IMG/VR virus record: IMGVR_UViG_3300025154_000055
DNA: 59,053 nt
From: an uncultured virus (IMG/VR IMGVR_UViG_3300025154_000055)
Lineage: Duplodnaviria > Heunggongvirae > Uroviricota > Caudoviricetes
Reading direction: 5' to 3' (one strand)
Part shown: piece after piece, positions 461 through 40,904 of the stretch
Layout: every line of letters begins with the position of its first letter
How positions within the stretch are numbered: position 1 is the first letter of the stretch
Translations under genes and position numbers: made by a program
Notes under the pieces: model-generated
Database searches by the model: none
Seen by the model: the letters and a program-made list of their open reading frames with translations, nothing else
What the model was told of the DNA's origin: nothing

Positions 461-981
461 TAGATTTCTATATACTTCTTCCAAGATTCCGGCCAATCTC
501 CGCTGACGATAATGTAACTCGTGCGTGGCGTTTTGGCGATAAAATCTGGAAAGTAGAATCTCATTCCGCTGTCTTCGAGACTTCGATTGGATTTGCGCCG
601 ATTGCACTTAGGGCAGGCCGCGCAAGTATTAGACCACTGAGAGGCGCGAATACCACGACGGATACATTCTTCGCGCGAGATAATGTGGTCAATCGTCCCG
701 GTAGTTCTATCCAAATCACAGCCACAATACTGGCACTTCCAGTGGTCTCGTGTGAATACAGCGCGTCGGCTCCAGACCGCCTTTTTACGGGGCACATTTA
801 CGAACCTGCGTAGCCTTAGCACACTGGGAAAATCTAAGGTCAACGAGGGAGACCGGAGTTTCCTGTCCGGCACGCTTTCTAGCATATCCACTTTATCGCC
901 AAATATCAGGGATAGCGCACGCTGTAAACTGATAGCGCGAAGTGCTTCACCGTTGGCGTTCAACAAAAGTACGGCAGTCAC
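460..981 (-). CDS. HNH endonuclease (McrA/HNH_5-like)
   Basis: RRAVFTRD-CQYCG-TIDHII-CPKCNRRK motif; N-terminal VLLLNA. Confidence 0.9.
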   Translation of the reverse strand: MTAVLLLNANGEALRAISLQRALSLIFGDKVDMLESVPDRKLRSPSLTLDFPSVLRLRRFVNVPRKKAVWSRRAVFTRDHWKCQYCGCDLDRTTGTIDHIISREECIRRGIRASQWSNTCAACPKCNRRKSNRSLEDSGMRFYFPDFIAKTPRTSYIIVSGDWPESWKKYIEI

Positions 982-1007: not shown

Positions 1008-1079
1008 TACCCGACGAGAATATTGAGTTCTCAACCTCGAATTTAGGAAATTCGCGCTCTATCTTTGAGCTAGTCGGGC
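1008..1079 (-). tRNA. tRNA-Arg(CCT)
   Basis: cloverleaf; acceptor GCCCGAC/GTCGGGT; loop TT-CCT-AA; T-loop CTCAATA. Confidence 0.85.
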
Positions 1080-3386: not shown

Positions 3387-3459
3387 TACCCCCACTCGGA
3401 CTTAAACCGAGATGTACAGATTAAAAGTCTGTCCCGTTATCAATTACGGACATGGAGGC
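3387..3459 (-). tRNA. tRNA-Lys(TTT)
   Basis: GCCTCCA/TGGGGGT; loop CT-TTT-AA; T-loop TTTAAGT. Confidence 0.87.
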
Positions 3460-4044: not shown

Positions 4045-4145
4045 ATAGCATCTCGTTATCGCACGCCAGACGCCTAGCGCTTGCTTAAGGCGCGAAGAGC
4101 GACGGACTTTACCGTTGGATAGTTCTGCGGCGAACGTCCAGTGTA

Positions 4146-4218
4146 CACTCTCAGTCGGACTCGAACCGGCGTGAAATCGCTGAAAACGATCCATCCTAAG
4201 CCGCTAGATGATGAGAGT
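4146..4218 (-). tRNA. tRNA-Glu(TTC)
   Basis: ACTCTCA/TGAGAGT; loop TT-TTC-AG; TTCGAGT. Confidence 0.9.
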
Positions 4219-4271
4219 ATGGAGCAGGGCTGGCGTGGTCTTCGCCACGGAAGTTCCAGACACCTGCGTAT

Positions 4272-4348
4272 TGGGGTAGATGGAGGGACGTGCGCCCTCT
4301 ATAAACGGTTCCACAGACCGTCGCGGCACTATATTCGCCTCATCCACC
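4272..4348 (-). tRNA. tRNA-His(GTG)
   Basis: encoded G-1:C73 and CCA; loop CT-GTG-GA; T-loop CGCACGT. Confidence 0.88.
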
Positions 4349-4355
4349 ATGTTCT

Positions 4356-4530
4356 GCTAAATATCTGTAATCGAGAGTGGAACGGTCAAGGTTATCAGTT
4401 ATTCACGCTCTGGGAGAACTCCACGGGACACCTTTCGGTGTTTCTGCTTTCGCTTCGTCAGCCGAACCAGATGAGCGTCCAGATGTTTCCTGTCTCCGTT
4501 CCCGGCAACCCACGGTCACAGATATTTAAC
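4356..4530 (-). ncRNA. 175-nt rod with a central bubble, 6S RNA-like
   Basis: long closing stem (TAAATATCTGT..), GGAACGG/CCGTTCC stem, ~17/19-nt central bubble containing ACCTTGA, apical ACGCT/AGCGT stem. Confidence 0.5.
4405..4478 (-). ncRNA. type I hammerhead ribozyme core
   Basis: CGG-CUGACGA-A-GC-GAAA-GC-A-GAAAC-ACC-GAAA-GGU-GUC-CCG; predicted cleavage after GUC, between 4427 and 4426. Confidence 0.75.
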
Positions 4531-4533
4531 TTG

Positions 4534-4617
4534 CGGAGATGAGAATGCTCGAACTTCTAGTCCCTTTCGGAACGCCGCGTTAGCAGTGCGGTCGGAACAT
4601 CAATTTCCAACATCTCC
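4534..4617 (-). tRNA. tRNA-Ser(GCT)
   Basis: GGAGATG/CATCTCC, G73; loop CT-GCT-AA; long variable arm. Confidence 0.9.
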
Positions 4618-4841
4618 AGTTCGACTGATTGAGCGCGGGAATCATAGTACCTCTACCCTCTTTTAATGGTCTGCCGACCACTATCAGTCCATTCCCAAAT
4701 TATGTCATCCCCTTAAAGGAATCCTAATCATCACGTCCTGGGCAATCCGGCACGAGTCTGAGTCTGCGGTATCTAAGGTGTTACGTGCGTAGTCCCGCTG
4801 TATTCAGCGGCATACTTCTTGGGTTACAGATTGTACCCATG

Positions 4842-4915
4842 TGCGCCTCCCAGAACTCGAATCTGGACTCCTCCGTCCCGCGAACGGATGTGTTATCCAA
4901 TTACACCAGAGACGC
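4842..4915 (-). tRNA. tRNA-Arg(GCG)
   Basis: GCGTCTC/GAGGCGC; loop TC-GCG-GG; TTCGAGT. Confidence 0.85.
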
Positions 4916-5023
4916 ATTTGCAACCTTTGGTTGCCGTCGCCCATTGCATCACGCGATTTCATGAATTATGGTCTCGCGTTTTCAGTCATCTATCGATGGG
5001 GCGATAACCCCGATGACCTTGCA

Positions 5024-6346: not shown

Positions 6347-7002
6347 TAGAAACTCTTACCAGCTCTGTACCTTTCTTTTCTCGCCACTCTTCCATTTCCT
6401 CTGTTTTTACCTTTATATGTGTCAGTTTGCGCGTCACAATTTGGGCATATCAATCTAAGGTTACTTAGTCTATTATCGTATGGGTTTCCATCAATGTGAT
6501 CTACTATCAAGGGAATTTCTAAACCATTCCAAACCGATCCGTCGCATATTTCGCAAACATGCTTTCTTGTGGCGAGAATGGTTCTCCTGACGGACGGAGG
6601 TTCTATTTTTTCTCCGCCATTCATTTTTGATATATTTTCCAATATCCTGTTTTCAGATATGCACTTCATAGAACAGAACCTTTTGTAGTACGGGTTTTTT
6701 GTTGGAAGACCACACTGTTCACATATCGTATCTGGTTTTTTGTTTCTCGTCCTTCGTTTGTTATTGTAAGACGCAAAGCACGACGATCCGCAAAACACAT
6801 TTTTACCGAACGCGATCCCGCCACAGTTTTTGCATGGTTTATCGTGACGCTTGTGCCAATTTATATGATTAGTCATCGACACTCTAGCAATTGGCTTTCC
6901 GCACGAATCGCATTTTATCTTATCGGTTTTTCCACAATAAGATAAATGTCCCGCTACACTTCTCTTGGAATTAAATTCCCTGCCGCATTTTGGACAGTTC
7001 AT
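6346..7002 (-). CDS. HNH homing endonuclease with N-terminal zinc fingers
   Basis: multiple CxxC pairs; C-terminal VDHIDGNPYDNRLSNLRLICPNC. Confidence 0.9.
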   Translation of the reverse strand: MNCPKCGREFNSKRSVAGHLSYCGKTDKIKCDSCGKPIARVSMTNHINWHKRHDKPCKNCGGIAFGKNVFCGSSCFASYNNKRRTRNKKPDTICEQCGLPTKNPYYKRFCSMKCISENRILENISKMNGGEKIEPPSVRRTILATRKHVCEICDGSVWNGLEIPLIVDHIDGNPYDNRLSNLRLICPNCDAQTDTYKGKNRGNGRVARKERYRAGKSF

Positions 7003-7554: not shown

Positions 7555-7627
7555 AGCCAACAGGGGCGCTCGAATCCCCAACCTTATCTTTACCAAAGAT
7601 ACGTTCATCCATTTGAACTTTGTCGGC
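7555..7627 (-). tRNA. tRNA-Thr(GGT)
   Basis: GCCGACA/TGTTGGC; loop TT-GGT-AA. Confidence 0.9.
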
Positions 7628-8061: not shown

Positions 8062-8063
8062 AG

Positions 8064-8374
8064 TGGAAATGTGGGGAGTCGAACCCCAGTCTCTCAGATT
8101 CCGGTTACATCATTCTTACGAGCGTGTCAGACTTTGAGAAAGTCTACGAAACAGGGATACCCTGACTTCGGTATCACTCCACCATCCGTCTTACTACTAG
8201 GCGACGGAAGCCTGTACTGCATTGCCGAATAACGCCTCGGCTAACGACGCCTGCGCGAAGGCAGGGTGTGTCAACTTGCTAGAGTTAGCATTTGATATTT
8301 GCGTTCATTAGGATTCAGAACGCCTACCGCTCGTGACGTTTTCCTTCCACTGAAATCGATTCCGGTTCATTCCC
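8064..8374 (-). ncRNA. ssrA: tmRNA
   Basis: acceptor GGGAATG/CATTTCC with G3:U70 and A73; GAC-T-arm; internal tag ORF 8289-8197 ANSSKLTHPAFAQASLAEALFGNAVQASVA followed by three stops. Confidence 0.93.
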
Positions 8375-25867: not shown

Positions 25868-26325
25868 TGGCGTTTATCCTTATAGAAGTCTTTCCACGAG
25901 AAGTCCGTATCATTATTAACGTGCTGCGTCATCATAAGTGAGTGCTCGTAAGACGGAAGAGACACCTTAATGTCTGGATACAGCGCCTTAAGGTCGAAAT
26001 CGTGTACGGTGTAGACTACAGGATGCTCGCGCTTGAATGACGCCGGAATCCATCGGAGATAGTAGTCATCCACGGCGTACCACTTCTCTTTCAGCGCTTC
26101 TTTCCAGTCTCTTGGATACTTGACTGTGAAGGTCTTAACACTCTCTCCCCACAAATACCCGTTGACTCTAACTCCGAATCCCACTAAGAGATAGTCGGTG
26201 AACAGTTCTGCGTTAGCGTCCAGAAACTTCTCTTGGAATGTTTGTAACATCCCGAATCGAATCTTTTCGAGACGAATTGTCCTGTATGACGGACTAAAGT
26301 CTAGCGTATCGTCTTGTTGCGTCAT
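25864..26325 (-). CDS. hypothetical protein
   Basis: likely start MTQQDD overlapping the upstream stop. Confidence 0.65.
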   Translation of the reverse strand: MTQQDDTLDFSPSYRTIRLEKIRFGMLQTFQEKFLDANAELFTDYLLVGFGVRVNGYLWGESVKTFTVKYPRDWKEALKEKWYAVDDYYLRWIPASFKREHPVVYTVHDFDLKALYPDIKVSLPSYEHSLMMTQHVNNDTDFSWKDFYKDKRQ

Positions 26326-26915
26326 GAGTGGGGTTCTCGCGCTGACTCTGCCGCCCACGCCATTGCCTTCTGGAGAACGGTATTGTTACTGCCGTTAATG
26401 AGACGCGACACACCTGACTCTGTGATGCTTAGAATCTCGCCTGTCTCTTTCAGGGATTTTCCTTCTACCGTGTGCAATCGGTGTGCGTCCAGGGCGCGTT
26501 GATACCGCATCTCCATCTCTGCGGCAGACTTCTTGCGGCGTCCAATCGTGGACTTATCCCCGTACTTGGCGTAATTGAGTACCTGGTTATGCGCCCCAAT
26601 CTCAGCGGGTGTGCCGTAGAACAAGTTATCTGCGGTACAGTCTGCCTTATTCCCATTCTTGTAGGATGCCATAGCGCGTTCTGGGCGTTCTCCAATGAAC
26701 GCTTGCGCCACAAGCTGTGCCAGACTGACGTTCTTCTGCTTGCCGTTGATACACAGCATGACACGGGTGTATCCTTTGGGCGTAACTAGGAGTCCGTGAA
26801 TCTTGGGTTCCTTCAGAACGTGTCCGAAGATACCGCGAGTGGTGGTTCGGACGCGCCCCAGACTGGAGACTTCGTAATTGTCGTATTGTGTTGCTTTCCA
26901 AACTTCTTCTGTCAT
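26322..26915 (-). CDS. NUMOD4/HNH-derived protein with C-terminal HTH (HNH degenerate)
   Basis: EVWK..YEVSSLGRVR NUMOD4; LVAQAFIG..SYKNGNKADCTADNL; GKSLKETGEILSITESGVSRLING HTH. Confidence 0.85.
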   Translation of the reverse strand: MTEEVWKATQYDNYEVSSLGRVRTTTRGIFGHVLKEPKIHGLLVTPKGYTRVMLCINGKQKNVSLAQLVAQAFIGERPERAMASYKNGNKADCTADNLFYGTPAEIGAHNQVLNYAKYGDKSTIGRRKKSAAEMEMRYQRALDAHRLHTVEGKSLKETGEILSITESGVSRLINGSNNTVLQKAMAWAAESAREPHS

Positions 26916-32425: not shown

Positions 32426-33210
32426 CGAAATCTTTGGTGGATGTGGTTATCCCAGCAAAGAACCAGAGTCAACTCGTTTTGAGATGTATTCAGTCACTCC
32501 GCGCCCAAAAGAGGATTGGGGATATTATTCTCATTGACGATGGCAGTCAAGATAGTGATCGTGATATTTTTAAGACTATCCCCAATGTCAATTTGTATAG
32601 GAATAGCGGTTCTGAGGGGTTTATTAAAAGCACATCTCGCGGAGTGAACAAAAGCAATGCCCCTTATGTTTTGCTTTTGAATAGTGACACAGAAGCGTAT
32701 CATACCGATTGTCTGAAGGTAATGGCGGAGAATTTGGATGATGGCGCGAAGATTTGTGGGGCGCTATTGCTCTATCCTAAAAACGATCTGTATCGCCCAG
32801 AGCGCATACAACACGCCGCGATCTATTATGGGAGTGATGGTTTCCCGAATCATATCTTTGGAGGATGGCACGCGGCGACCCCTGCGGCAAACGTCAAGCG
32901 GATTGTTCCTGCTGTTACTGGGGCGTGCTTTATGATTAAGCGTGATTGGTGGGAAAAACTGAACGGGTGGGACAATAAACTTGGGCGTGGTGTTTTTGAG
33001 GATGTTGAGGCTTGTATTAGAACGATTAAGATGGGCGGAGAGATTGTCTACGAGCCAAAATCAGTTTTCACCCACTACGAACACGCCAGTCAGGAACCGG
33101 GCAGTAATTGGTTCACGCGAGAAAATATACAAAAGAACTTTCAATATCTGACCTTAAAACACGGAATACAACCGCCGTCAGATTCTTATTGGTTCAAGGG
33201 GATAGCATGA
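32422..33210 (+). CDS. GT2 glycosyltransferase
   Basis: VVIPAKN, IDDGSQD, LLNSDT, VTGAC, FEDVE. Confidence 0.92.
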   Translation: MTKSLVDVVIPAKNQSQLVLRCIQSLRAQKRIGDIILIDDGSQDSDRDIFKTIPNVNLYRNSGSEGFIKSTSRGVNKSNAPYVLLLNSDTEAYHTDCLKVMAENLDDGAKICGALLLYPKNDLYRPERIQHAAIYYGSDGFPNHIFGGWHAATPAANVKRIVPAVTGACFMIKRDWWEKLNGWDNKLGRGVFEDVEACIRTIKMGGEIVYEPKSVFTHYEHASQEPGSNWFTRENIQKNFQYLTLKHGIQPPSDSYWFKGIA

Positions 33211-34958
33211 AGATAGGTGCGTTTTCGAGTCATGCCTACGGTGTGGGGGGCGGTTTTCAGGCATTGAAGTGGATCGCGTTGGCTTGTCAAAAGTTAGGAC
33301 ATGAGATAACCATCCATGTTAGAAACTCTCCGTCAGAGGCGGTGCTTGCACAGTGGCCCTCAGGGATTCCGATGCGATCATATTCCATCGGTTGCGAGAG
33401 TGAATATGATGTTGCGATTTGCGTTGATCATTTTGCGTGGTCTCCGCCTCTTGCTAAGAGAAATGTAGCGTTTGTATTTTTCCCGCAAGATAAGTTGCCG
33501 CCTCCGCCAGATGGGGTAAAATTGTACGCGGTGAGTGATTATACCGCTCGACACATTAAGAACCGTTGGGATGTCGAAGCCGAGACGCTATATCTTCCTA
33601 TTAGTAAGGGATTCTACGCCGGAGATAAAGAGAAGATTATTCTTCACGTGTCTCGCTTTACAGAACCATCCGAATATTCTGATAAAGCACATGAGCAGAT
33701 GATTCTTGCCTTTAAGAGCATTTCTCGTAAAATTCCGGGGTGGCGGTTAGCACTAGCTGGAAGTATTGACCCCCATCAGGGATTCTATTATGATAAATTG
33801 CAGCGTCTTGCGGCGGGGTTTCCTATTGATTTTGCTCCAAATTGGGGACAAAAAGAACTGGCGGATTTGTATGCGCGTTCTGCCATTTACTACCACGCGA
33901 CAGGCGTCAGTCTCTCGACGGTTCCGGGGGCGCAAGAACATTTGGGACTGGCCCCAATTGAAGCGCAAGCATCCGGGTGCGTTCCGATTGTTTACAATAG
34001 CGGTGGAATGCCCGAAGTGGTTCTTGACCACAAAACTGGATTGTTGTTCGATAATATCATGGAATTGCCCAAGCTAACGCTAGAATTGATTAGCAATATG
34101 CAAGCATGGGCGTCCATGTCCCAAGCGGGTCAGCTGTGGGCGCAACAATGGGCGGACTTTGATGCTTTCACGAGGCGCATTGACGATATGTTGAACGACC
34201 GTCCAATTATGCGGTCGAGTGTATTCGGTATTGCGCTAAAGGCATCTCAGTCAGACGTAACGATTGTGATTCCAACGATGAATTCTCCGTTATTAAATAA
34301 ATGTCTAGTTTCGTTAAACAAGACAGTGCCCAATTCAAAAATCCTTATTATGAATAACGGCGGTTCGCTATCTTTATCGGATGAGATAGACGTATCGAAT
34401 ATTCGGGTTGTTGATTTGGTGAATAATTTGGGTTTTGCAGGGGCGCTTAGAAGAGCTAAATCGTTAGTAGATACTTCGCTCACGATGATCCTGAATGATG
34501 ACACAGAAATGCGGCATCAAGGATGGATGGAGCAATTGTTACTCGTGATGAACAACGGGGCAGTAGGAGTTGTTGGGCCTAAATTGGTGTTTGGAGATGG
34601 GCGGATTCAGTTCGCGGGTGGAATAATTGACGCCAATAGGGACGACATTGGGTCTCATCGGGCGTATGGACGACCTGACGGCATAGAGGTTTCTGCGCCA
34701 ATGGAAACAGACTTTATTACTGGCGCGGCGCTGTTATGTAGAACAGAGTTGTTTGATATGCCAGAAGAATTATCAGACACGCTAAATTACGAGGATGTTT
34801 GGCTATGTTTTTCGGCAAAAGAGAAGGGGTATAAGGTTGTCTATCAGCCCGCCAGCGTCATTACCCATTTTGAGGGTGAAACAAAAAAGAGGACGCCGGA
34901 TATTCAGGGCAAGGTGGATGCGGCAAGGAACATCTTTAGGGATAGGTGGATGAAATGA
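33207..34958 (+). CDS. GT4+GT2 fusion glycosyltransferase
   Basis: EHLGLAPIEAQASG (GT4) followed by IVIPT, LNDD, TGAALL, YEDV (GT2). Confidence 0.92.
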   Translation: MKIGAFSSHAYGVGGGFQALKWIALACQKLGHEITIHVRNSPSEAVLAQWPSGIPMRSYSIGCESEYDVAICVDHFAWSPPLAKRNVAFVFFPQDKLPPPPDGVKLYAVSDYTARHIKNRWDVEAETLYLPISKGFYAGDKEKIILHVSRFTEPSEYSDKAHEQMILAFKSISRKIPGWRLALAGSIDPHQGFYYDKLQRLAAGFPIDFAPNWGQKELADLYARSAIYYHATGVSLSTVPGAQEHLGLAPIEAQASGCVPIVYNSGGMPEVVLDHKTGLLFDNIMELPKLTLELISNMQAWASMSQAGQLWAQQWADFDAFTRRIDDMLNDRPIMRSSVFGIALKASQSDVTIVIPTMNSPLLNKCLVSLNKTVPNSKILIMNNGGSLSLSDEIDVSNIRVVDLVNNLGFAGALRRAKSLVDTSLTMILNDDTEMRHQGWMEQLLLVMNNGAVGVVGPKLVFGDGRIQFAGGIIDANRDDIGSHRAYGRPDGIEVSAPMETDFITGAALLCRTELFDMPEELSDTLNYEDVWLCFSAKEKGYKVVYQPASVITHFEGETKKRTPDIQGKVDAARNIFRDRWMK

Positions 34959-35812
34959 CAAACAGTCTTGAATTAACTGGTATTCACGTCTGGAGAAATA
35001 CAGTTCGCTTGGGATACCCTGTATTAGAGTCTTTTCTTAGCACGATTGATATGGTAGACGAGGTAGTATTGTGCGTTGACCCTACATCAGATGGAGAGAC
35101 GATTAGACTTGCGCGTGCCATTCAAGACAAGTTTGACAAAGTGAATTTAGTGTGGTTTGAATGGCCGATTGGGACAAGTGGAGACGGGCGCGTGATTGGT
35201 GTCGCCTCGTCTTTCGCTCTACAGCAGGCTAGAACCTCTCATGTGATAAACATTCAAGGTGATGAAATATATGGATCAGAGTTATCCAGTCATATTAAAG
35301 AAAACTGGCGGGGATGGGCCAGGGACGGGATAGAGTGCATTAGATTTAAGGTGCTGAACCTCGAAAGCAATATGCAAGAATATCAGGGAGGGGGAAACTG
35401 GGATTGGCAAACAGGCTCTGGATACAATCACAGTTATAAATTGTGTAAAAAATGCCTAAATACTCGCTACATACATGATGCTTGGAGTTTTGATTGGAAT
35501 GGGTTTGTACACGCAGACGCGATATTTAGCGAGAAATTCCCAATAGTTCACGCTCACAATAACTTCAGAGATAGCCTAATCGATTTAAGACAGGCGGCGG
35601 CAAATGAGATTTGGACGGATGACAAATATGGGCCTATGTACAAGAAATTTGCCGATGATTTAGAGGAATCTCAAAAACAATGGTATGATGATCCAAAGTG
35701 GACGCGAACGGATTCTCCCTTCGGGTATTTGATTCCAGATTTTGCTAAGGGCATTCTTGGTCAAACGCGATATGCCCCGAATTATGACCTCCTGGAGAGA
35801 TGGCCTTTATGA
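34955..35812 (+). CDS. GT-A (GT2-like) glycosyltransferase
   Basis: RNTVRLGYPVLES, VDEVV, IQGDE. Confidence 0.8.
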   Translation: MTNSLELTGIHVWRNTVRLGYPVLESFLSTIDMVDEVVLCVDPTSDGETIRLARAIQDKFDKVNLVWFEWPIGTSGDGRVIGVASSFALQQARTSHVINIQGDEIYGSELSSHIKENWRGWARDGIECIRFKVLNLESNMQEYQGGGNWDWQTGSGYNHSYKLCKKCLNTRYIHDAWSFDWNGFVHADAIFSEKFPIVHAHNNFRDSLIDLRQAAANEIWTDDKYGPMYKKFADDLEESQKQWYDDPKWTRTDSPFGYLIPDFAKGILGQTRYAPNYDLLERWPL

Positions 35813-36570
35813 ACATATGGTCATATACACCCGTTAGCTGTGATGACACAGATGTGCTTCCTAGTTGCCTAAACTCGCTATCTAAAATCCCTGTAGATAG
35901 AATGATTGTGGCGGACGGTGGTCTGGGGCGTGTTCTAGTGGCGCGAATGCGGAATTGGACGCCCGTAAGTGAATGGCTAAAGACTCGCCCTGAGTATAAA
36001 GATGGGCTATGGAATGGTGTCCCGCTAGAACTAATCCATAACCCACAGATACATCCCGCCCAACAGCGCAATGATGTTCTGAGATGGATTGATGGGCAGC
36101 CAATCCCCCCTGATTGGATTATTGCATTAGATTCCGACGAGATTGCGTCTGATGAAATGATAGTGCAATGCCGCCCTCTGTTATCTCAAGCGCCCGACCG
36201 AGTAACGAATTACGTACAGCCCCTGCTGAATATTGCACAAGATGAGGCGCATTGTGCGGGGGGTGTGCATAGTGGATGGTTGTCTCATGCGCGAGTTCAT
36301 AGACGTGGAGTGGTGCGGTATCGAGGGGAGTGGCATGAGCACCAAGACTATTCTGGCGTAAGGGAACGATGGCCCGCGAGAATTGTTCACACCCGAATGT
36401 TGTTTAGAAAGAGACTTCTTTATCAACGGGACGCGCCTACCATAACAGGGTCGTGGCCCGATGCGGTGATTGGGGATATTCCAGAAGGCGTTCACTGGAC
36501 GCTAGAATGGCCTACCGATGAAAAGGCAATACCGTTTTATTCAGATGCGAGGGAATACTTTGGCGAATAA
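35800..36570 (+). CDS. GT-A (GT2-like) glycosyltransferase
   Basis: IVADGG, QRN, LDSDE, WHE. Confidence 0.8.
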   Translation: MAFMNIWSYTPVSCDDTDVLPSCLNSLSKIPVDRMIVADGGLGRVLVARMRNWTPVSEWLKTRPEYKDGLWNGVPLELIHNPQIHPAQQRNDVLRWIDGQPIPPDWIIALDSDEIASDEMIVQCRPLLSQAPDRVTNYVQPLLNIAQDEAHCAGGVHSGWLSHARVHRRGVVRYRGEWHEHQDYSGVRERWPARIVHTRMLFRKRLLYQRDAPTITGSWPDAVIGDIPEGVHWTLEWPTDEKAIPFYSDAREYFGE

Positions 36571-36796
36571 TATTGATACACTCAAAGAGTTGCTGTATAA
36601 TGTAATGGGAGTACCCGTTGACGAAACAACTTCTAGCGATACGTGCGAGGCATGGGACTCTCTGCGTCATCTTAATTTGGTGCTTGCGCTAGAGGACAAA
36701 TTCGATATTTCCTTCACGGAGGATGAATCGGTTAATTTATTCTCTTATGCCGATATTAAACGGACTCTGGATAAGCATGGAGTAGACTTCTCGTGA
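36560..36796 (+). CDS. acyl carrier protein
   Basis: WDSLRHLNLVLALEDKFDI phosphopantetheine site; acidic. Confidence 0.9.
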   Translation: MANNIDTLKELLYNVMGVPVDETTSSDTCEAWDSLRHLNLVLALEDKFDISFTEDESVNLFSYADIKRTLDKHGVDFS

Positions 36797-37386
36797 TATT
36801 CAAGGGGAATCTCGTTACGCTACGTCCGCTAGAGGTTGAGGATGCGCCTATTACGCTGAAATGGCGGTTAAGTGATAGGGCGAGGATGCTCCAACGCGGA
36901 TCGCAAACCATTGGACAACAGCTGGATTGGATTTACGCCAGTAACACGAATGGTGACTTGAACTTCATCGCTGAATACGCTGGACGCCCTGTCGGAATGC
37001 AGTCGATTTGTAGCATTAGTGGGATTCACAAAACAGCGTCTACGGGAAGAATGTTAGTAGGAGAAGAGGTTGATGGACTTCCGGTGATGCTAGAAGCAGA
37101 TTTAATTTTATGCGACTACGCTTTTGGGGAGTTGGGACTGGACACTATCTATGGGGACGTGATGGTGGACAATAAATCGATGATTCAGGCGCGTCTCTAT
37201 CTGGGGTATCACCAAGACGGCGTTCTCAGAAGTCACTACCTGTACGATGGCGTCCGAAAAGACACCGTGGCGCTATCTATCCTAAAAGACGAATGGCCGA
37301 TGTGCCGGTCGAAACAAGTGGAGATTTTGTCTCTAATGAGCGGGATAGACGAGGCAGAATGGGCAACTCCGATATTCGCCTCATAG
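36793..37386 (+). CDS. GNAT N-acyltransferase (PseH/RimL-like)
   Basis: VTLRPL, YAFGELGL, DN..LGYHQDGVLR. Confidence 0.85.
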   Translation: MIFKGNLVTLRPLEVEDAPITLKWRLSDRARMLQRGSQTIGQQLDWIYASNTNGDLNFIAEYAGRPVGMQSICSISGIHKTASTGRMLVGEEVDGLPVMLEADLILCDYAFGELGLDTIYGDVMVDNKSMIQARLYLGYHQDGVLRSHYLYDGVRKDTVALSILKDEWPMCRSKQVEILSLMSGIDEAEWATPIFAS

Positions 37387-37778
37387 AATTTCCTGTGATT
37401 CATGATATTCGGGGCAACCTGACGTTCATTGAGAATGACAGGCAGATTCCCTTTGAGGTTAAGCGGGTTTACTATCTCTATCGAGTCCCTGCGGGAGAAT
37501 CCAGAGCGGGACATGCTCATAAGTCGCTTGAACAGGTGATGATTGCGATTTCGGGCAGTTTTCTGGTGACATTGGATACGGGAACTGATCGTTTTGAATA
37601 CCGACTCTCGTCTCCGCGTATCGGGCTTCATATCTTTCCCGGAACATGGCGTGAGATTAGCGAGTTTTCAGAAGGCGCGGTTTGTCTCGTCTTGGCATCT
37701 GATTATTACAATGAGTCCGACTACTACAGAAACTACGATCAGTTTATCGCGTCAGTAAAGGAGAAGAATGGATTATAA
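37359..37778 (+). CDS. fdtA: dTDP-6-deoxy-3,4-keto-hexulose isomerase (FdtA/WxcM cupin)
   Basis: DIRGNL, PFEVKRVYY, RAGHAHK, WRE, YNESDYYRNY. Confidence 0.9.
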   Translation: MGNSDIRLIEFPVIHDIRGNLTFIENDRQIPFEVKRVYYLYRVPAGESRAGHAHKSLEQVMIAISGSFLVTLDTGTDRFEYRLSSPRIGLHIFPGTWREISEFSEGAVCLVLASDYYNESDYYRNYDQFIASVKEKNGL

Positions 37779-38067
37779 TCAGGCAATGGATGTGCTTCAA
37801 AAGTCTATGGACGACATGATGAATATGGGAGACATGATTGGAGAACCCGTTAAGGTAACGGAAGATACGCAGTTCATTGGTGATGCTTCGCCACTGGATT
37901 CTATCGCGTTCGTTTCGTTTATCGTGGCGCTGGAACAACGCACCAATAAACGTATTGTCGTGAGTAAAATTCATCAATTCAATATTGATGACGCCGGACA
38001 TAAATTCGACCCCTATCACCCCGTGCTGTATGCGGACACTTTGGCGAGATACCTGATGACCCTATGA
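37768..38067 (+). CDS. second acyl carrier protein
   Basis: SPLDSIAFVSFIVALE. Confidence 0.8.
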   Translation: MDYNQAMDVLQKSMDDMMNMGDMIGEPVKVTEDTQFIGDASPLDSIAFVSFIVALEQRTNKRIVVSKIHQFNIDDAGHKFDPYHPVLYADTLARYLMTL

Positions 38068-38771
38068 GTGAAAATCCTGTTGCCGTTATCACGGGCGCGA
38101 GCAAGGGAATCGGGTTGAATATGGCCGAACACTTTCTGTCTTTGGGGTACGAAGTGTTTGGATGTAGCAGAGGAGAAACACCCCTCCAGGACGCCCATTA
38201 TTATCATCTTGTCTTAGATGTTGGAGACGAAGATGACGTGTCCCTGTGGGTGCGGTCTATTAAAAAGATGGTGGGGCGCATTGACGTTCTTGTTTGCAAT
38301 GCCGCCTACGCCCCCGCTAATGCGCTGTTCCTGTCCACGCCAGACGAGATGCTGAACGAGGTCATGGATACGAACGTCAGGGGGACGTATCTCGTATGCC
38401 GAGAAGTTGCCAAAGTTATGATGCTACAGAAGTCCGGCAGAATCATTACGGTGTCTTCAATGGCGGTAGGTCTTCACGCTGAGGGAACATCTGCATACGC
38501 CGCCAGCAAGAGCGCGATTGTTGAGATGTCCAAGATTCTTGCTAAAGAAGTGGCTAGATTTGGGATTACTTGCAATGTGATTGCTCCGTCTATTGTTCAG
38601 ACAGACTCGGTTAAAGCATTAGGAGATAAAGTGATTGAACGCGCCCTGTCTCAATTGACGATCAAGCGGGAGGTAACGATGGGTGAGATTAACAACGTCG
38701 TGGACTTCTTTGTTTCGCCTGAGAGTCGGATCATTACTGGGCAGGTTATCCATATGGGATTGGTTGTGTAA
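38064..38771 (+). CDS. FabG-like short-chain ketoreductase
   Basis: TGASKGIG, CNA, YAASK. Confidence 0.92.
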   Translation: MSENPVAVITGASKGIGLNMAEHFLSLGYEVFGCSRGETPLQDAHYYHLVLDVGDEDDVSLWVRSIKKMVGRIDVLVCNAAYAPANALFLSTPDEMLNEVMDTNVRGTYLVCREVAKVMMLQKSGRIITVSSMAVGLHAEGTSAYAASKSAIVEMSKILAKEVARFGITCNVIAPSIVQTDSVKALGDKVIERALSQLTIKREVTMGEINNVVDFFVSPESRIITGQVIHMGLVV

Positions 38772-39685
38772 TGGGCATTGGTGTGTTGGGGGTTGGAAAA
38801 TATGTGCCAGAGAGCGTCCTGTTTAATTCTCCAGAGTTCGCGGACAAAACGGGCATCCGTGAAAGGCGGATTGTCTCGCAGGGAGAGTTGTCTTCTGACC
38901 TTGCCGCGAAAGCGTGCCTACGATCTCTTGAGAGTGCGGGGGTTTCGGCAGAGCAAATCGGATTGATTATCTGCGCGACCTACACGGGGGATTATCAATC
39001 TCCGGCCACGTCGTGCAAGATTCAATCTCTCATTGGAGCGGAGAATGCCGGGGCATTCGATATTCTAGCGAATTGCACCGGGTTTCAGATTGGCCTTAGT
39101 GCTGCGTCCGACCGATTGACGCTCGATGCTAGTTTGGATTATGCTCTAGTGGTGGGTGTAACTACCCAATCCCGATACATCCAAAATATCCAAGAAGAAG
39201 GATTCTACGGAGATGGCGCTGGGGCAGTTGTTTTAGGGCGAGTTCCAGACGGATACGGTGTTTTGGCGACCGAAGTATTCTCCAACACGGACGTGTATGA
39301 GTCCGTGAGATTATTGCGACCCGATCCAGCGCCCCGCTTCTTAGAGATGAATGGGCTAGATGTTTGGAAGCAAGTGATCCAGAATCAACCAAAGTGCGTT
39401 AGCCGAGTTTTGGATAAAATTGGAGCAACGACGCGAGATGTGGACTTCTTTGTGTTTCATCAGGCGAACGTTAAGCTGGTTGAGTATCTGGTGGGTAAGA
39501 TGAAGATGTCGCTTTCCAAAACGCATATCACAGCGGATAGATATGGGAACACAGCAGAAGCAAGCTTGCCGATAACTTTGTGTGAGGCAGTAGAGAGCGG
39601 TAAAATCAACCGAAACGATCTTGTGGTAATTAGCGGAGTCGGTGCGGGGTTTATATTCGGGGCAACGGTGCTACGATGGTACTAG
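38771..39685 (+). CDS. FabH-like ketoacyl-ACP synthase III
   Basis: catalytic triad ANCTGF, FHQAN, YGNT; GDGAGA. Confidence 0.93.
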   Translation: MGIGVLGVGKYVPESVLFNSPEFADKTGIRERRIVSQGELSSDLAAKACLRSLESAGVSAEQIGLIICATYTGDYQSPATSCKIQSLIGAENAGAFDILANCTGFQIGLSAASDRLTLDASLDYALVVGVTTQSRYIQNIQEEGFYGDGAGAVVLGRVPDGYGVLATEVFSNTDVYESVRLLRPDPAPRFLEMNGLDVWKQVIQNQPKCVSRVLDKIGATTRDVDFFVFHQANVKLVEYLVGKMKMSLSKTHITADRYGNTAEASLPITLCEAVESGKINRNDLVVISGVGAGFIFGATVLRWY

Positions 39686-40047
39686 ACCAGATTAGATTAG
39701 GAGAACCAGTTTCGATTTACAAGACAGTGCATCGCCATGATGTCATGGAGTTCTGTAGCTTAACTGGAGATTATAACCCGATTCATGTAGACAGTGGCGT
39801 GGTTCACGGATTGCTCTTGGCGTCCTACGTCTCTCGCGTGATTGGAATGAAGATGCCCGGAAATGGGGCAATCATTGCCACGATGAATTTAGAGTTTCAC
39901 CAACCCGCGCACGTTGGGGATGATTTAGAAATCATCGTCACGCCCGTAGAGAAGTCGGTCGCCGCGCACTCCGTAGTGATTGATATTCTTATTAAAAAGG
40001 ATGGGGTGTCTTTGGTGACGGGGGAATCTGTGGTGAAATGCCCATGA
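39676..40047 (+). CDS. MaoC-like (hot-dog) dehydratase
   Basis: LTGDYNPIHVD..VHG. Confidence 0.9.
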   Translation: MVLDQIRLGEPVSIYKTVHRHDVMEFCSLTGDYNPIHVDSGVVHGLLLASYVSRVIGMKMPGNGAIIATMNLEFHQPAHVGDDLEIIVTPVEKSVAAHSVVIDILIKKDGVSLVTGESVVKCP

Positions 40048-40904
40048 TTGAGGAACTTGTTGCGGCAATTGAGTTTCTAAGCAGTAGACAGGGTAGAAAT
40101 ATCCGACTGTTTATGGCAAAACAAAACGCCGATTATTTACAATTTGCTGAGGATATTTCAGAGAGAGCGGTATCTCTTGCTGGCGGCATTGAGTTGGCGG
40201 CAGAAGCATACAATCAGGTCTGCGCGGACATTCTGAGAGAACAGATACGCTACAGTCGGACAGGAACCTACTTTCTCCAAACGGCACAACAGGCGAATGA
40301 CTCTATATACAGTCAACCGTCTATGAGGGAGTATGCTATTGGGTTGCTTCTCTCGTATATATTCTGGCCTAACCATTACAAAATGTGGAAGTTCTACGAA
40401 AAGCACATTCGGGATATTCCTGTAACCCGTGTTCTGGAAATTGGGGCAGGGCATGGATTATTTTCGGCACATATGGTTAATAAATCTCCCGAATCGCAAC
40501 TTGACATAATCGACATTAGCAAGTTGTCCGTCATACTGTCTTGTGATATGATGCGAGCGCATGGCGCTTTAAGTGATAATGTTAAATTTGTTGTTGGAGA
40601 CTTTTTGTCGGTAGATTTGTCTCATCAGTACGACTTCCTAATTATGGGTGAGGTTTTAGAGCATGTGGACAAAGCGCCTGAGTTTTTGAGAAGGGCGTAT
40701 GATGCTTTAAGGAGTGGCGGGAAAGCGTATCTTTCTACTTGCTCGAATTGCCCAGCACTCGATCATGTGTGGCACTTTCATTCAGTAAATGAGATTCGGA
40801 GAATGATTGACGATGCGGGGTTTATGGTGTACGCAGACTTGATACTACCCGTATCGTCGTTCCCGGACACTACAAACTATTGTGCTATCTTGGAGAAACC
40901 ATGA
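40038..40904 (+). CDS. class I SAM-dependent methyltransferase
   Basis: VLEIGAGHG, EVLEHV. Confidence 0.9.
   Translation: MPMIEELVAAIEFLSSRQGRNIRLFMAKQNADYLQFAEDISERAVSLAGGIELAAEAYNQVCADILREQIRYSRTGTYFLQTAQQANDSIYSQPSMREYAIGLLLSYIFWPNHYKMWKFYEKHIRDIPVTRVLEIGAGHGLFSAHMVNKSPESQLDIIDISKLSVILSCDMMRAHGALSDNVKFVVGDFLSVDLSHQYDFLIMGEVLEHVDKAPEFLRRAYDALRSGGKAYLSTCSNCPALDHVWHFHSVNEIRRMIDDAGFMVYADLILPVSSFPDTTNYCAILEKP

What the first reader, a model, noticed from the sequence alone, without database searches (positions are those of the whole stretch)
4405..4478. Hammerhead ribozyme inside the tRNA operon
Seen on the minus strand: complete core CUGACGA / GAAAC / GUC, a perfect 5-bp stem III capped by GAAA, a minimal stem II (GC-GAAA-GC) and an extended bulged stem I. 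The usual G10.1-C11.1 pair is replaced by A.A, so it is a variant core. It lies between tRNA-Ser(GCT) and tRNA-His. Established: HDV-like ribozymes process phage tRNA trailers. Inference: this one cuts the polycistronic precursor or matures the RNA that hosts it.
Basis: partly seen in the sequence, partly recalled or inferred. Interest (0 to 1): 0.8.

Follow-up and report, generated by a model that had tools for sequence, protein, structure and literature searches.

The report
Hammerhead ribozyme nested in uncatalogued phage RNA
The flagged stretch looks like a real self-cutting hammerhead RNA, but it sits as an optional add-on inside a larger, tightly knotted small RNA that many phages carry, often among their tRNA genes, and that appears in no RNA catalogue searched.

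Summary
On the minus strand, 4478-4405 carries a complete type I hammerhead: CUGACGA, GAAA, A15.1-U16.1 and C17. Stem II is 2 bp flanked by A10.1.A11.1, and the predicted cut lies between 4427 and 4426.

Sequence alone is weak evidence: 10 of 300 shuffled windows give such a motif. No Rfam hammerhead model matches the window, even at E<=10. Comparison settles it. In 37 of 37 related sequences all three stems form, with 37 distinct stem III sequences. H17 is C, A or U. Position 10.1/11.1 is G-C in 15, A.A in 14, U.U in 7 and C.A in 1.

The hammerhead is not free-standing. It fills one loop of a conserved RNA of about 105 nt, which runs 4530-4356 here with its outer stem. That RNA has two interlocked pseudoknots in a pseudo-two-fold layout. 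Relatives exist without the hammerhead and in a circularly permuted order with the hammerhead at the 5' end.

Copies without it lie mostly flush between tRNAs (19 of 30). Copies with it mostly do not (1 of 21 standard, 0 of 9 permuted).

Cultured phages carry the RNA unannotated: Mycobacterium Gaia and phiGD24-3, Arthrobacter Constance, Microcystis Mwe-JY26, Enterobacter SDFMU_EhYP and Pectobacterium Pappous.

Best reading: the ribozyme nicks or matures its host RNA. Cutting the tRNA precursor is a by-product. Cleavage and the host RNA's function are untested.

The parts
4516..4530 (-). Outer closing stem, 5' strand (GUUAAAUAUCUGUGA)
   Evidence: Pairs over 15 bp, 2 of them G.U, with 4356-4370. 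Outer stems of unrelated sequence occur in many relatives: own-partner mean 9.7 bp against 7.0 bp with permuted partners.
4485..4515 (-). Host RNA unit 1. Conserved CCGUGGG (4515-4509). Hairpin helix C (4509-4504 with 4490-4485). Its loop carries D5' GGAACGG (4502-4496) and AGACA (4495-4491).
   Evidence: Helix C covaries: 4 of 5 pairs compensatory in hammerhead-bearing copies and 5 of 6 in copies without it. The covariance model R1, built only from copies without a hammerhead, aligns this stretch.
4479..4484 (-). Conserved single-stranded AUCUGG
   Evidence: Nearly invariant (CAUCURG) in alignments A2 and A3.
4473..4478 (-). Helix A 5' strand, which is also the outer part of hammerhead stem I (ACGCUC)
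   Evidence: Pairs with 4405-4410. All 6 of 6 pairs show compensatory changes in both alignments.
4462..4472 (-). Stem I internal-loop strand AUCUGGUU (4472-4465) and inner stem I 5' strand CGG (4464-4462)
   Evidence: CGG pairs with CCG at 4426-4424. The core-adjacent pair is G-C in 18, C-G in 14 and A-U in 5 of 37 sequences.
4455..4461 (-). Hammerhead core C3-A9 (CUGACGA)
   Evidence: In the host-anchored searches, 11 of the 12 family loci with an insert of at least about 38 nt show an intact CUGANGA...GAAA core, as do all family hits.
4445..4454 (-). Stem II: A10.1, GC, GAAA loop, GC, A11.1
   Evidence: There are 27 distinct stem II sequences among 37, all forming 2-5 bp. A.A occurs in 14 of 37 and in phages phiGD24-3 and Gaia.
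4428..4444 (-). G12 A13 A14 (4444-4442) and the stem III hairpin from A15.1 (4441) to U16.1 (4428), GAAA loop
   Evidence: 37 distinct stem III sequences among 37; 35 form at least 4 bp.
4426..4427 (-). Predicted cleavage site: C17 (4427) | C1.1 (4426)
   Evidence: Position fixed by the hammerhead numbering. H17 is C in 30, A in 6, U in 1 and never G among 37. Cleavage not tested.
4391..4426 (-). Host RNA unit 2. CCGUGGA (4426-4420). Hairpin helix B (GUUCUC 4419-4414 with GAUAAC 4396-4391). Its loop carries CCA, A3' GAGCGU (4410-4405) and GAAUAACU (4404-4397).
   Evidence: Helix B crosses helix A, forming a pseudoknot. 5 of 6 pairs are compensatory and 4 of 6. CGUGGA and GAAUAA are invariant or nearly so.
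4377..4390 (-). CUUGA linker, D3' CCGUUCC (4385-4379) and CAC (4379-4377), which can pair with the 5' GUG
   Evidence: Helix D (4502-4496 with 4385-4379): in 43 of 43 relatives the loop of unit 1 pairs with this tail. Mean 7.6 bp against 4.7 bp with other sequences' tails; 0 of 200 permutations reach it. The GUG/CAC pairing is invariant, so it is not tested by covariation.
4356..4370 (-). Outer closing stem, 3' strand (UUACAGAUAUUUAGC)
4275..4347 (-). tRNA-His(GUG), the next gene downstream on the same strand
   Evidence: Rfam tRNA, 34.7 bits, E 2e-5. Not called by ARAGORN.
4534..4617 (-). Deviant tRNA-Ser(GCU)-like cloverleaf, upstream neighbour
   Evidence: Folds with a 7-bp acceptor stem and a long variable arm. 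Called by neither ARAGORN nor Rfam.

Best explanation
The stretch is a genuine, evolutionarily maintained type I hammerhead ribozyme of a minimal-stem-II, A10.1.A11.1 variety. It is not a free-standing processing signal.

Shown:
- It occupies one loop (loop 1 of the second pseudoknot) of a conserved phage small RNA of about 105 nt.
- That host RNA is built from two similar units. Each unit is CGUGG, a hairpin, (A/C)U(C/A)(U)GG and a tail. The hairpin loop of each unit pairs with the tail of the other (helices A and D).
- The host's helix A doubles as the outer part of hammerhead stem I.
- The insert is optional, and the host RNA also exists in a circularly permuted order.

Inferred:
- After transcription of the minus-strand tRNA array, the ribozyme cuts between C4427 and C4426. 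This leaves a 2',3'-cyclic phosphate on the piece holding unit 1 plus the ribozyme, and a 5'-OH on CCGUGGA, the first bases of unit 2.
- The two pieces stay joined by helix A, helix D and the 15-bp outer stem, giving a nicked two-piece RNA.
- RNase P at tRNA-His and the 3'-end machinery at the Ser-like tRNA trim the outer ends.
- The cut gives the host RNA an end it otherwise gets from flanking tRNA processing. In permuted relatives the same ribozyme at the same CCGUGGA junction simply removes the 5' leader.
- Severing the Ser-His precursor is a side effect.

What the host RNA does is unknown.
For: Core and stems are present.

Hammerhead in homologues:
- An exact 22-mer and degenerate patterns retrieved homologues from viral contigs.
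- 37 of 37 sequences parse as hammerheads, with 37 distinct stem III and 27 distinct stem II sequences. H17 is C in 30, A in 6, U in 1. Position 10.1/11.1 is GC in 15, AA in 14, UU in 7, CA in 1.
- On alignment A2, helices C, A, inner stem I and B are 96.6% paired, against 71.6% in shuffles and 38-48% when the partner is slid. 16 of 20 pairs show compensatory changes, and 0 of 500 shuffles reach the covariation score.

Host RNA:
- Searches anchored on the host RNA, not the ribozyme, find copies with only a 3-7 nt loop or a plain hairpin at the insertion site.
- Those copies covary on their own: 98.3% paired against 72.9% in shuffles, 15 of 18 pairs compensatory.
- A covariance model built only from them hits the window at 4371-4516(-) with 50 bits, E 9.6e-14. 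It matches full length, with the helix-A loop expanded from 15 to 59 nt.
- The same model hits 21 of 21 standard hammerhead-bearing loci tested.
- Helix D pairs in 43 of 43 sequences, mean 7.6 bp against 4.7 bp with other sequences' tails.
- In the permuted form, 6 of 6 have the order hammerhead, unit 2, capped hairpin, unit 1, A5', and A5'/A3' covary.

Context: 1 of 21 standard and 0 of 9 permuted hammerhead-bearing copies are tRNA-adjacent, against 19 of 30 without it (Fisher p 2.3e-5). After counting three variant-core inserts as hammerheads, the figures are 3 of 24 against 17 of 27 (p 4e-4).

Cultured phages:
- They carry the same arrangement. Phage phiGD24-3 has an A.A copy lying flush between tRNA-Ser and tRNA-Trp.
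- Rfam Hammerhead_1 scores a relative (Enterobacter phage SDFMU_EhYP) at 28.7 bits, E 7.6e-4, which is below its threshold of 34.

Literature: two-base-pair stem II and a U10.1-U11.1 mismatch are documented in natural active hammerheads (PMC3088659, section 8, read).
Against: - No cleavage data and no RNA reads exist for this or any relative.
- No Rfam hammerhead model matches the window, at the gathering score or at E<=10 on an 801-nt slice.
- An A.A mismatch at 10.1/11.1 is not among the natural variants described in the section of PMC3088659 that I read. That section says U.U supports more activity than any other mispair, so A.A should be slower in a minimal context.
- In this copy the inner stem I is only 3 bp, followed by U.U. 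Many relatives have 4-5 bp there (and by eye).
- Nearest-neighbour energy favours a competing fold that sequesters G12-A13: -26.6 against -14.4 kcal/mol for the hammerhead secondary structure. This score ignores tertiary contacts and pseudoknots.
- The 'end-maker' role is inferred from context statistics only. Some copies without a hammerhead (L254, L260) have long outer stems and no tRNA neighbour, so the rule is not strict.
- Hammerhead-bearing copies inside tRNA arrays do exist: this window, L006, L030, L037, L119, L141 and phiGD24-3.
- Most hammerhead-bearing sequences were retrieved with patterns that required the core, so core invariance in that set is partly by construction.
Confidence: 0.62

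Rival explanations
1. One reading: the ribozyme is there to cut the polycistronic tRNA precursor. It would be a ribozyme alternative to protein RNases, as theta ribozymes are for tRNA 3' ends.
For: In this window a cut at 4427|4426 necessarily separates the Ser-like tRNA from tRNA-His. Theta (HDV-like) ribozymes sit with their cleavage site within 5 nt of phage tRNA 3' ends (PMC10879173, abstract and section 7, read). Several hammerhead-bearing copies are directly upstream of a tRNA: L030, L037, L119, L141 and phiGD24-3.
Against: The cut lies about 78 nt upstream of tRNA-His and about 106 nt downstream of the Ser-like tRNA, so it makes neither mature end. In the unbiased sample, hammerhead-bearing copies are rarely near tRNAs: 1 of 21 standard and 0 of 9 permuted, against 19 of 30 without the ribozyme. 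Host RNAs packed between tRNAs mostly lack the ribozyme.
Confidence: 0.13
2. The insert is a decaying or inert hammerhead in this phage. A.A at 10.1/11.1, a 2-bp stem II, a 3-bp inner stem I and a competing fold make it inactive, and the host RNA works uncut.
For: No Rfam match. The competing fold is 12 kcal/mol more stable by nearest-neighbour rules. Copies without a hammerhead show the host RNA does not need a cut. Damaged cores exist in the family: L291 has CCGAUGA, and L252 has C at position 16.1.
Against: 14 of 37 copies share A.A, and each has a different, well-paired stem III and an intact core. That is not expected of pseudogenes. The same variety is kept in cultured M. abscessus phages and, with a U3-A8 core, in Gaia. 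The competing pairing uses loop bases that are not conserved in relatives.
Confidence: 0.13
3. A gated ribozyme. The double-pseudoknot host fold is a sensor for a ligand, protein or tRNA. Because it forms stem I of the hammerhead, its folding state switches cleavage on or off.
For: Stem I of the ribozyme is host helix A, and its loop strand is pseudoknot helix B, so the host fold and ribozyme geometry are coupled. The host has many invariant unpaired bases (CGUGG, AUCUGG, GAAUAA), as binding pockets do. Several stand-alone copies lie 7-60 nt upstream of an ORF start.
Against: The downstream genes share no visible family. Copies without a hammerhead sit between tRNAs, where there is nothing to regulate. 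No known riboswitch family matches.
Confidence: 0.08
4. A chance resemblance, a degenerate tRNA, or conservation owed to a protein-coding frame (plus-strand ORF 4141-4542).
For: 10 of 300 shuffled windows give a hammerhead-like site. The 74-mer's minimum-energy fold looks like a cloverleaf. Small hypothetical CDSs are annotated over the element in phages Constance, Pappous and Gaia.
Against: There is compensatory variation in every helix. Loop lengths differ by amounts not divisible by three. The ORF runs antisense through tRNA-His and tRNA-Glu. No tRNA model matches 4405-4478.
Confidence: 0.01

Closest known systems
Type I hammerhead ribozymes of phages and prophages (Rfam RF00163; Perreault et al. 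2011, PMC3088659)
   Same: It has the same catalytic core, the A15.1-U16.1 pair, H17, three helices and an open stem I. Very short stems II and a mismatched 10.1/11.1 (U.U) are already recorded in nature (section 8, read). A relative scores 28.7 bits on RF00163.
   Different: The window copy matches no Rfam hammerhead model. It has A.A at 10.1/11.1, which that section does not list. Stem I is interrupted by a pseudoknot strand, and the whole ribozyme is nested in another conserved RNA. It does not stand between genes.
Theta (minimal HDV-like) ribozymes beside phage tRNAs (Kienbeck et al. 2024, PMC10879173)
   Same: Both are small self-cleaving RNAs of Caudoviricetes linked to tRNA genes. The host RNA, like theta ribozymes, often starts within a few nucleotides of a tRNA 3' end: -1 to 4 nt in 7 of 13 cases.
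   Different: The catalytic fold differs. The hammerhead cut is internal to the host RNA and not at a tRNA end. The host RNA lacks P3, P4 and the J4/2 arrangement of HDV-like ribozymes (my mapping from the sequence; no HDV-family hit). The paper's main text does not mention hammerheads (0 occurrences).
GOLLD and ROOL RNAs (Weinberg et al. 2017, PMC5737381, passages read)
   Same: These are structured phage or prophage RNAs of unknown function, often next to tRNAs and probably co-transcribed with them.
   Different: They are five to eight times larger and have no sequence or model match here. No embedded ribozyme or permuted form is reported in the passages I read.
Circularly permuted non-coding RNA genes and permuted hammerheads (Nucleic Acids Res 2023, PMC10085705, passages read)
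   Same: One RNA fold is encoded in two gene orders.
   Different: Here the host RNA is permuted, not the ribozyme. The hammerhead keeps the classic type I order in both forms.
Hammerhead-released folded RNAs noted earlier in this scan (e1-6004168, e1-6066103)
   Same: Uncatalogued phage RNAs whose look-alikes usually sit in tRNA clusters. In one note a hammerhead stands 'instead of the usual tRNA'.
   Different: Those RNAs are about 240 nt and showed no shared words with this one. The notes are unchecked and I could not compare sequences.

Membership tests
Hammerhead ribozyme | Core C3 U4 G5 A6 N7 G8 A9 | tested here: met
   CUGACGA at 4461-4455. Present in 37 of 37 parsed relatives, but most of these were retrieved with this core in the search pattern. 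U3-A8 variants occur in Gaia and L344.
Hammerhead ribozyme | G12 A13 A14, then an A15.1-U16.1 pair closing stem III | tested here: met
   GAA at 4444-4442; A4441 pairs with U4428. 37 of 37 relatives.
Hammerhead ribozyme | Cleavage-site nucleotide H17 (not G) after U16.1 | tested here: met
   C4427. In relatives: C 30, A 6, U 1, G 0.
Hammerhead ribozyme | Three helices around the core, supported by covariation | tested here: met
   Stem I: inner 3 pairs 100% paired and outer 6 of 6 pairs compensatory. Stem II: 27 distinct sequences. Stem III: 37 distinct sequences. All pair.
Hammerhead ribozyme | G10.1-C11.1 pair at the base of stem II | tested here: not met
   A4454 and A4445. In the family: GC 15, AA 14, UU 7, CA 1 of 37. 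This is a consensus feature, not an absolute one: a natural U.U is reported in PMC3088659, section 8.
Hammerhead ribozyme | Score at or above the gathering threshold of an Rfam hammerhead model | tested here: not met
   No hit at the gathering score or at E<=10 on 4150-4950. None in 20 relatives at the gathering score. Best relative: RF00163 at 28.7 bits against a threshold of 34.
Hammerhead ribozyme | Site-specific self-cleavage giving 2',3'-cyclic phosphate and 5'-OH ends | not testable with these tools
HDV-like / theta ribozyme (considered for the host RNA) | Nested double pseudoknot P1-P1.1-P2-P3(-P4), with a catalytic C in J4/2 and cleavage at the 5' end of P1 | tested here: not met
   Helices A and B have a P1/P2-like topology. 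Only CCA lies where P3 and L3 should be, and only GAAUAACU where P1.1, P4 and J4/2 should be. No HDV-family match.
tRNA (considered for the 74-mer) | Cloverleaf with D, anticodon and T arms recognised by tRNA models | tested here: not met
   Not called by ARAGORN or the Rfam tRNA model. The cloverleaf-like minimum-energy fold is not supported by covariation.
Any Rfam 15 family (host RNA) | Match of the host RNA to a curated covariance model | tested here: not met
   No match at E<=10 over hammerhead-less copies or cultured-phage copies, including the 105-nt Mwe-JY26 copy.

The most novel reading that the evidence does not exclude
The host is a new class of phage RNA. It is a pseudo-two-fold double pseudoknot whose two units swap loop and tail. 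It needs a free 5' end at an N-CGUGG junction, and it obtains that end in interchangeable ways: from the 3' end of an upstream tRNA, from a built-in hammerhead, or from gene permutation with a 5' hammerhead. In the boldest form, the host RNA is itself a self-cleaving ribozyme that cuts at its own 5' edge and so releases the upstream tRNA, as theta ribozymes do. The hammerhead would then supply the equivalent cut at the second, symmetry-related junction.
Probability: 0.12. Interest if true: 0.9.

Novelty: new variant of a known kind. Interest (0 to 1): 0.72.

Why it matters
Hammerheads in phages are usually read as punctuation between genes. Here one is a removable module inside another conserved RNA, sharing a helix with it. 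It appears to stand in for the end-making that flanking tRNAs otherwise provide. That gives a concrete, testable role for a bacterial-virus hammerhead.

It also documents an A10.1.A11.1 core variety kept in 14 of 37 sequences.

The work exposes a widespread small RNA that is unannotated in the phage records examined and matched no Rfam family. The RNA has an unusual symmetric, permutable fold. It occurs in phages that can be grown in harmless laboratory hosts, such as Gaia on M. smegmatis and Constance on Arthrobacter. Cleavage, structure and phenotype can therefore all be tested directly.

Tried and rejected
- **Rfam.** Gathering score on the window, E<=10 on 4150-4950, 20 hammerhead-bearing loci, 6 loci without it and 6 cultured-phage loci. 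No family matched the host RNA, and no hammerhead reached threshold.
- **blastn of 4150-4950 against phage records:** no match. Only shorter queries from relatives found cultured phages.
- **Whole genome of the window:** none is held.
- **A loose flank pattern** returned mostly collagen-like repeats and other chance hits. Only 9 of 121 were family members.
- **Scan of 185,579 species genomes with a strict 3' pattern:** 10 hits, none a family member. The pattern misses known copies such as the M. abscessus prophages. So this shows only that the RNA is rare in that collection by this pattern, not that it is absent.
- **Downstream ORFs of stand-alone copies** shared no obvious family by eye. They were not run against protein libraries.
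- **Window proteins** show a tailed phage with replication and structural genes. No RNA ligase, kinase-phosphatase or RtcB lies within the 59 kb, so there is no link to RNA repair.
- **Sequencing runs:** no RNA holder listed.
- **Reading the 74-mer as a tRNA, or the host RNA as HDV-like, twister, pistol or hatchet:** rejected on topology and the lack of model matches. The twister, pistol and hatchet comparisons rest on recalled consensus features plus the negative Rfam scans.
- **Literature searches** found no paper describing a hammerhead inside a tRNA-array RNA or this host RNA. These searches cover open-access papers and bioRxiv only.
- **Earlier findings of this scan:** none by sequence.
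Full report
**1. The observation**

Read on the minus strand, 4478-4405 is:

ACGCUC-AUCUGGUU-CGG-CUGACGA-A-GC-GAAA-GC-A-GAA-A-CACC-GAAA-GGUG-U-C|CCG-UGGA-GUUCUC-CCA-GAGCGU

- Every hammerhead core position is present.
- Stem III is 5 bp including A15.1-U16.1. Stem II is two G-C pairs flanked by A10.1 and A11.1.
- Stem I is CGG/CCG plus ACGCUC/GAGCGU.
- A descriptor requiring the core, at least 2 bp in stem II, at least 4 bp in stem III, H17 and 3 bp of stem I finds only this site in the window.
- The same descriptor finds at least one site in 10 of 300 dinucleotide shuffles. Taken alone, across a scan of many windows, this could be chance.
- Rfam gives no hammerhead match, at the gathering score or at E<=10 on an 801-nt slice.
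- tRNA-His (4275-4347) is confirmed by Rfam at 34.7 bits.
- The 'tRNA-Ser(GCT)' at 4617-4534 only folds into a deviant cloverleaf. Neither ARAGORN nor Rfam calls it.

**2. Relatives show a real hammerhead**

An exact 22-mer from the core and stem II hit 7 viral contigs. Their alignment showed different but complementary stems. Most were chance, but 32 shared conserved flanks with the window.

For 37 non-identical sequences including the window:

- All 37 parse as hammerheads.
- Stem III has 37 different sequences. It forms at least 4 bp in 35, and 2 or 3 bp in the other two.
- Stem II has 27 different sequences of 2-5 bp.
- N7 is any base.
- H17 is C in 30, A in 6, U in 1 and never G.
- 10.1/11.1 is G-C in 15, A.A in 14, U.U in 7 and C.A in 1.

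On alignment A2, four helices in well-aligned columns are 96.6% paired. These are inner stem I, outer stem I (helix A), and host helices B and C. Shuffled partners give 71.6% and slid partners 38-48%. 16 of 20 pairs show compensatory changes, and 0 of 500 shuffles reach the covariation score.

One caveat applies. Most of these sequences were found with patterns that required the core, so core invariance in this set is partly built in. Searches that did not require the core are covered in section 3.

Perreault et al. 2011 (PMC3088659, section 8, read) already report natural hammerheads with two-base-pair stems II and with a U10.1-U11.1 mismatch. That section does not mention A.A.

**3. The hammerhead is an insert in a larger RNA**

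The flanks are conserved: upstream CGUGGG-hairpin-AUCUGG, downstream CGUGGA-...-GAAUAA(C/A)UG-...-CUWRG.

A viral-contig pattern anchored only on the 3' flank gave 27 loci:

- 8 were chance hits.
- 11 carried a canonical hammerhead core.
- 8 were clear family members without one. Five have a loop of 3 nt (L260, L265, L262, L272) or a plain hairpin (L258). L254 and L264 have a 17-nt insert. L252 has a variant core.

The same kind of pattern on metagenome contigs gave 72 loci, of which 54 were family members.

Hammerhead-less copies covary on their own: 98.3% paired against 72.9% in shuffles, with 15 of 18 pairs compensatory.

A covariance model (R1) built from 20 hammerhead-less sequences gave these results:

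- It hits the window at 4371-4516(-) with 50 bits, E 9.6e-14. The match is full length, with the helix-A loop expanded from 15 to 59 nt. There is only one copy in the window.
- It hits 21 of 21 standard hammerhead-bearing loci tested, plus partial hits on 2 permuted ones.

Every family insert of about 38 nt or more is a hammerhead or a recognisable variant:

- U3-A8 cores in L344 and phage Gaia. This is the covarying pair described in PMC3088659, section 8.
- CCGAUGA in L291.
- A 16.1 defect in L252.

**4. Anatomy of the host RNA**

In the window the parts are as follows.

- Outer stem: 4530-4516 with 4370-4356, 15 bp.
- Unit 1:
  - CCGUGGG at 4515-4509.
  - Hairpin C: 4509-4504 with 4490-4485.
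  - The loop of hairpin C holds D5' (4502-4496) and AGACA.
  - AUCUGG follows.
- Tail 1: A5' at 4478-4473.
- The hammerhead follows tail 1.
- Unit 2:
  - CCGUGGA at 4426-4420.
  - Hairpin B: 4419-4414 with 4396-4391.
  - The loop of hairpin B holds CCA, A3' (4410-4405) and GAAUAACU.
  - CUUGA follows.
- Tail 2: D3' at 4385-4379, then CAC.

The loop of each unit pairs with the tail of the other, giving two pseudoknots in a pseudo-two-fold arrangement.

Helix D pairs in 43 of 43 sequences. The mean is 7.6 bp, against 4.7 bp when tails are exchanged among sequences, and 0 of 200 permutations reach it.

The pairing of the 5' GUG with the 3' CAC, and the symmetry itself, are my reading. Those bases do not vary, so covariation cannot test them.

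No Rfam 15 family matches the host RNA.

**5. A circularly permuted form**

Six viral loci (L015, L042, L126, L266, L268, L270) share one order: hammerhead, unit 2, tail 2, a capped hairpin, unit 1, tail 1. The distant A5'/A3' strands and helix D still covary. Enterobacter phage SDFMU_EhYP and Pectobacterium phage Pappous have the same order. In this form the hammerhead stands at the 5' edge and cuts at the same CCGUGGA junction, which simply removes the leader.

**6. Context**

The sample gathered without reference to the hammerhead has 62 non-redundant members. A same-strand tRNA lies beside:

| Form | tRNA-adjacent |
|---|---|
| Standard, with hammerhead | 1 of 21 |
| Permuted, with hammerhead | 0 of 9 |
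| Standard, without hammerhead | 19 of 30 |

- Fisher p is 2.3e-5 for standard copies with the hammerhead against those without.
- Counting three variant-core inserts as hammerheads gives 3 of 24 against 17 of 27, p 4e-4.
- Where a tRNA lies upstream, the host RNA begins -1 to 4 nt after it in 7 of 13 cases. Downstream tRNAs follow within a few nucleotides.
- Stand-alone copies are often followed by terminator-like hairpins or lie just upstream of unrelated ORFs.
- Exceptions exist. Hammerhead-bearing copies inside tRNA arrays include this window, L006, L030, L037, L119 and L141.

The window is a tailed phage with head, tape-measure, clamp, SSB, RNase H and Dam genes. Its tRNA array holds HNH endonuclease genes and a tmRNA.

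**7. Cultured phages**

blastn with two relatives found the RNA in the following records. It is unannotated, or lies under short 'hypothetical protein' CDSs.

| Phage | Form | Notes |
|---|---|---|
| Microcystis phage Mwe-JY26 | No hammerhead | 82 bits on R1; inside a tRNA array |
| Mycobacterium phage Gaia | Hammerhead, U3-A8 core, A.A | Starts at the end of tRNA-Ser |
| Arthrobacter phages Constance and Karkharias | Canonical hammerhead (read in Constance; Karkharias is a blastn match only) | H17 = A |
| M. abscessus phage phiGD24-3 and three prophage records | A.A hammerhead (read in phiGD24-3; the prophage records are blastn matches only) | Flush between tRNA-Ser and tRNA-Trp |
| Enterobacter phage SDFMU_EhYP | Permuted, with hammerhead | Rfam Hammerhead_1 28.7 bits, E 7.6e-4 (threshold 34) |
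| Pectobacterium phages Pappous and Taid, Dickeya phage Setonix | Permuted, with hammerhead (read in Pappous; Taid and Setonix are blastn matches only) | Pappous copy is followed by tRNA-Met |

The Rfam score on SDFMU_EhYP gives independent, sub-threshold recognition of the family's insert as a type I hammerhead.

**8. How it most likely works**

*Shown:*
- The hammerhead features are conserved.
- The ribozyme sits in a loop of a conserved, pseudoknotted host RNA.
- The insert is optional.
- A permuted form exists.
- Presence of the hammerhead is inversely associated with tRNA neighbours.

*Inferred:*
- The ribozyme cuts at 4427|4426.
- The two pieces stay paired through helix A, helix D and the outer stem.
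- RNase P and the tRNA 3'-end enzymes trim the outer ends.
- The selected role of the cut is to give the host RNA an end at the CCGUGGA junction. Copies embedded between tRNAs get their ends from tRNA processing instead.

I put about 0.9 on 'a maintained hammerhead'. I put about 0.75 on measurable self-cleavage of this particular copy, and about 0.5-0.6 on the end-making role.

*Against:*
- There are no cleavage data.
- There is no Rfam match.
- A.A is expected to be slower than G-C or U.U.
- This copy's inner stem I is only 3 bp.
- A competing fold is more stable by nearest-neighbour rules: -26.6 against -14.4 kcal/mol. Those rules ignore tertiary structure and pseudoknots.

The function of the host RNA is unknown. 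Ideas such as a decoy for tRNA-targeting defences, a ribozyme, or a binder of the translation machinery are speculation.

**9. Comparison with what is known, and novelty**

- The ribozyme is a member of the hammerhead class on every defining feature that could be tested, except the G10.1-C11.1 consensus pair and the Rfam threshold.
- Phage hammerheads between genes have been known since 2011.
- tRNA-linked theta ribozymes (PMC10879173, abstract and section 7, read) are the nearest functional parallel. They have a different fold and cut at the tRNA end.
- I found no paper describing a hammerhead nested in a tRNA-array RNA, or describing this host RNA. These searches cover open-access papers and bioRxiv only.
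- Two unchecked notes from this scan describe other hammerhead-released phage RNAs whose relatives sit in tRNA clusters. This suggests the theme recurs on other DNA. The notes shared no sequence words with this element.

**Verdict:** a real feature. It is a new variant of a known kind (a hammerhead) in a new setting, and it points to an undescribed RNA family.

Noticed in passing
window 8063-8374 (-): The phage encodes a full tmRNA (Rfam 65.8 bits) with an unusually long predicted tag, ANSSKLTHPAFAQASLAEALFGNAVQASVA. It lies at the upstream end of the tRNA array.
   Followed up: no
window 1008-1079, 3387-3459, 4275-4347, 7555-7627 (-): Four tRNAs are called by Rfam but missed by ARAGORN. With ARAGORN's 22 this makes at least 26 tRNA genes in the first 8.5 kb, several with deviant arms.
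   Followed up: partly
window 4534-4617 (-) and 4618-4840 (-): There is a Ser(GCU)-like cloverleaf with a G.A pair closing the T loop and a 4-bp anticodon stem. No tRNA caller recognises it. The 220 nt upstream of it matches no RNA family at E<=10.
   Followed up: partly
window 463-981 (-), 6349-7002 (-), 26325-26915 (-): HNH and NUMOD4 homing-endonuclease-like ORFs lie inside and beside the tRNA array.
   Followed up: no
window 33108-43786 (+): Just before the head genes there is a block of glycosyltransferase, GNAT acetyltransferase, short-chain dehydrogenase, KAS III-like condensing enzyme and SAM methyltransferase genes. This is an unusual biosynthetic cluster for a phage.
   Followed up: no
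L045, L113, L196, L258, L263 (3' of the host RNA); L042 and L268 (3' of the permuted form; in L268 also 5' of the hammerhead): A second conserved module recurs: UGACA followed by a hairpin. Its 4-5 bp stem differs in sequence between loci but always pairs, and its loop is invariantly GAAAGA.
   Followed up: no
L357 (phage Gaia) 628-634; L344: These hammerhead cores read UUGAUAA and UUGACAA. They are natural U3-A8 covarying variants of the C3-G8 pair, inside the same host RNA.
   Followed up: partly
L358 (Constance gene 68), L361 (Pappous CDS0014), L357 (Gaia gene 147 start): Short 'hypothetical protein' CDSs are annotated across the RNA element in cultured-phage records. They are probably mis-annotations of a non-coding RNA.
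   Followed up: no
window 4465-4484 (-): The conserved CAUCUGG motif occurs twice, 14 nt apart (4485-4479 and 4473-4467). The second copy lies in the stem I internal loop and can pair with the stem II/G12-A13 region in the competing minimum-energy fold. Relatives show only AUCU or AUUU at that place.
   Followed up: partly
L306, L321, L258, L254, L341 (helix-A loop): The loop that holds the hammerhead in other copies carries unrelated short hairpins or 17-28 nt inserts in these copies. It is therefore a general hot spot for insertions.
   Followed up: no
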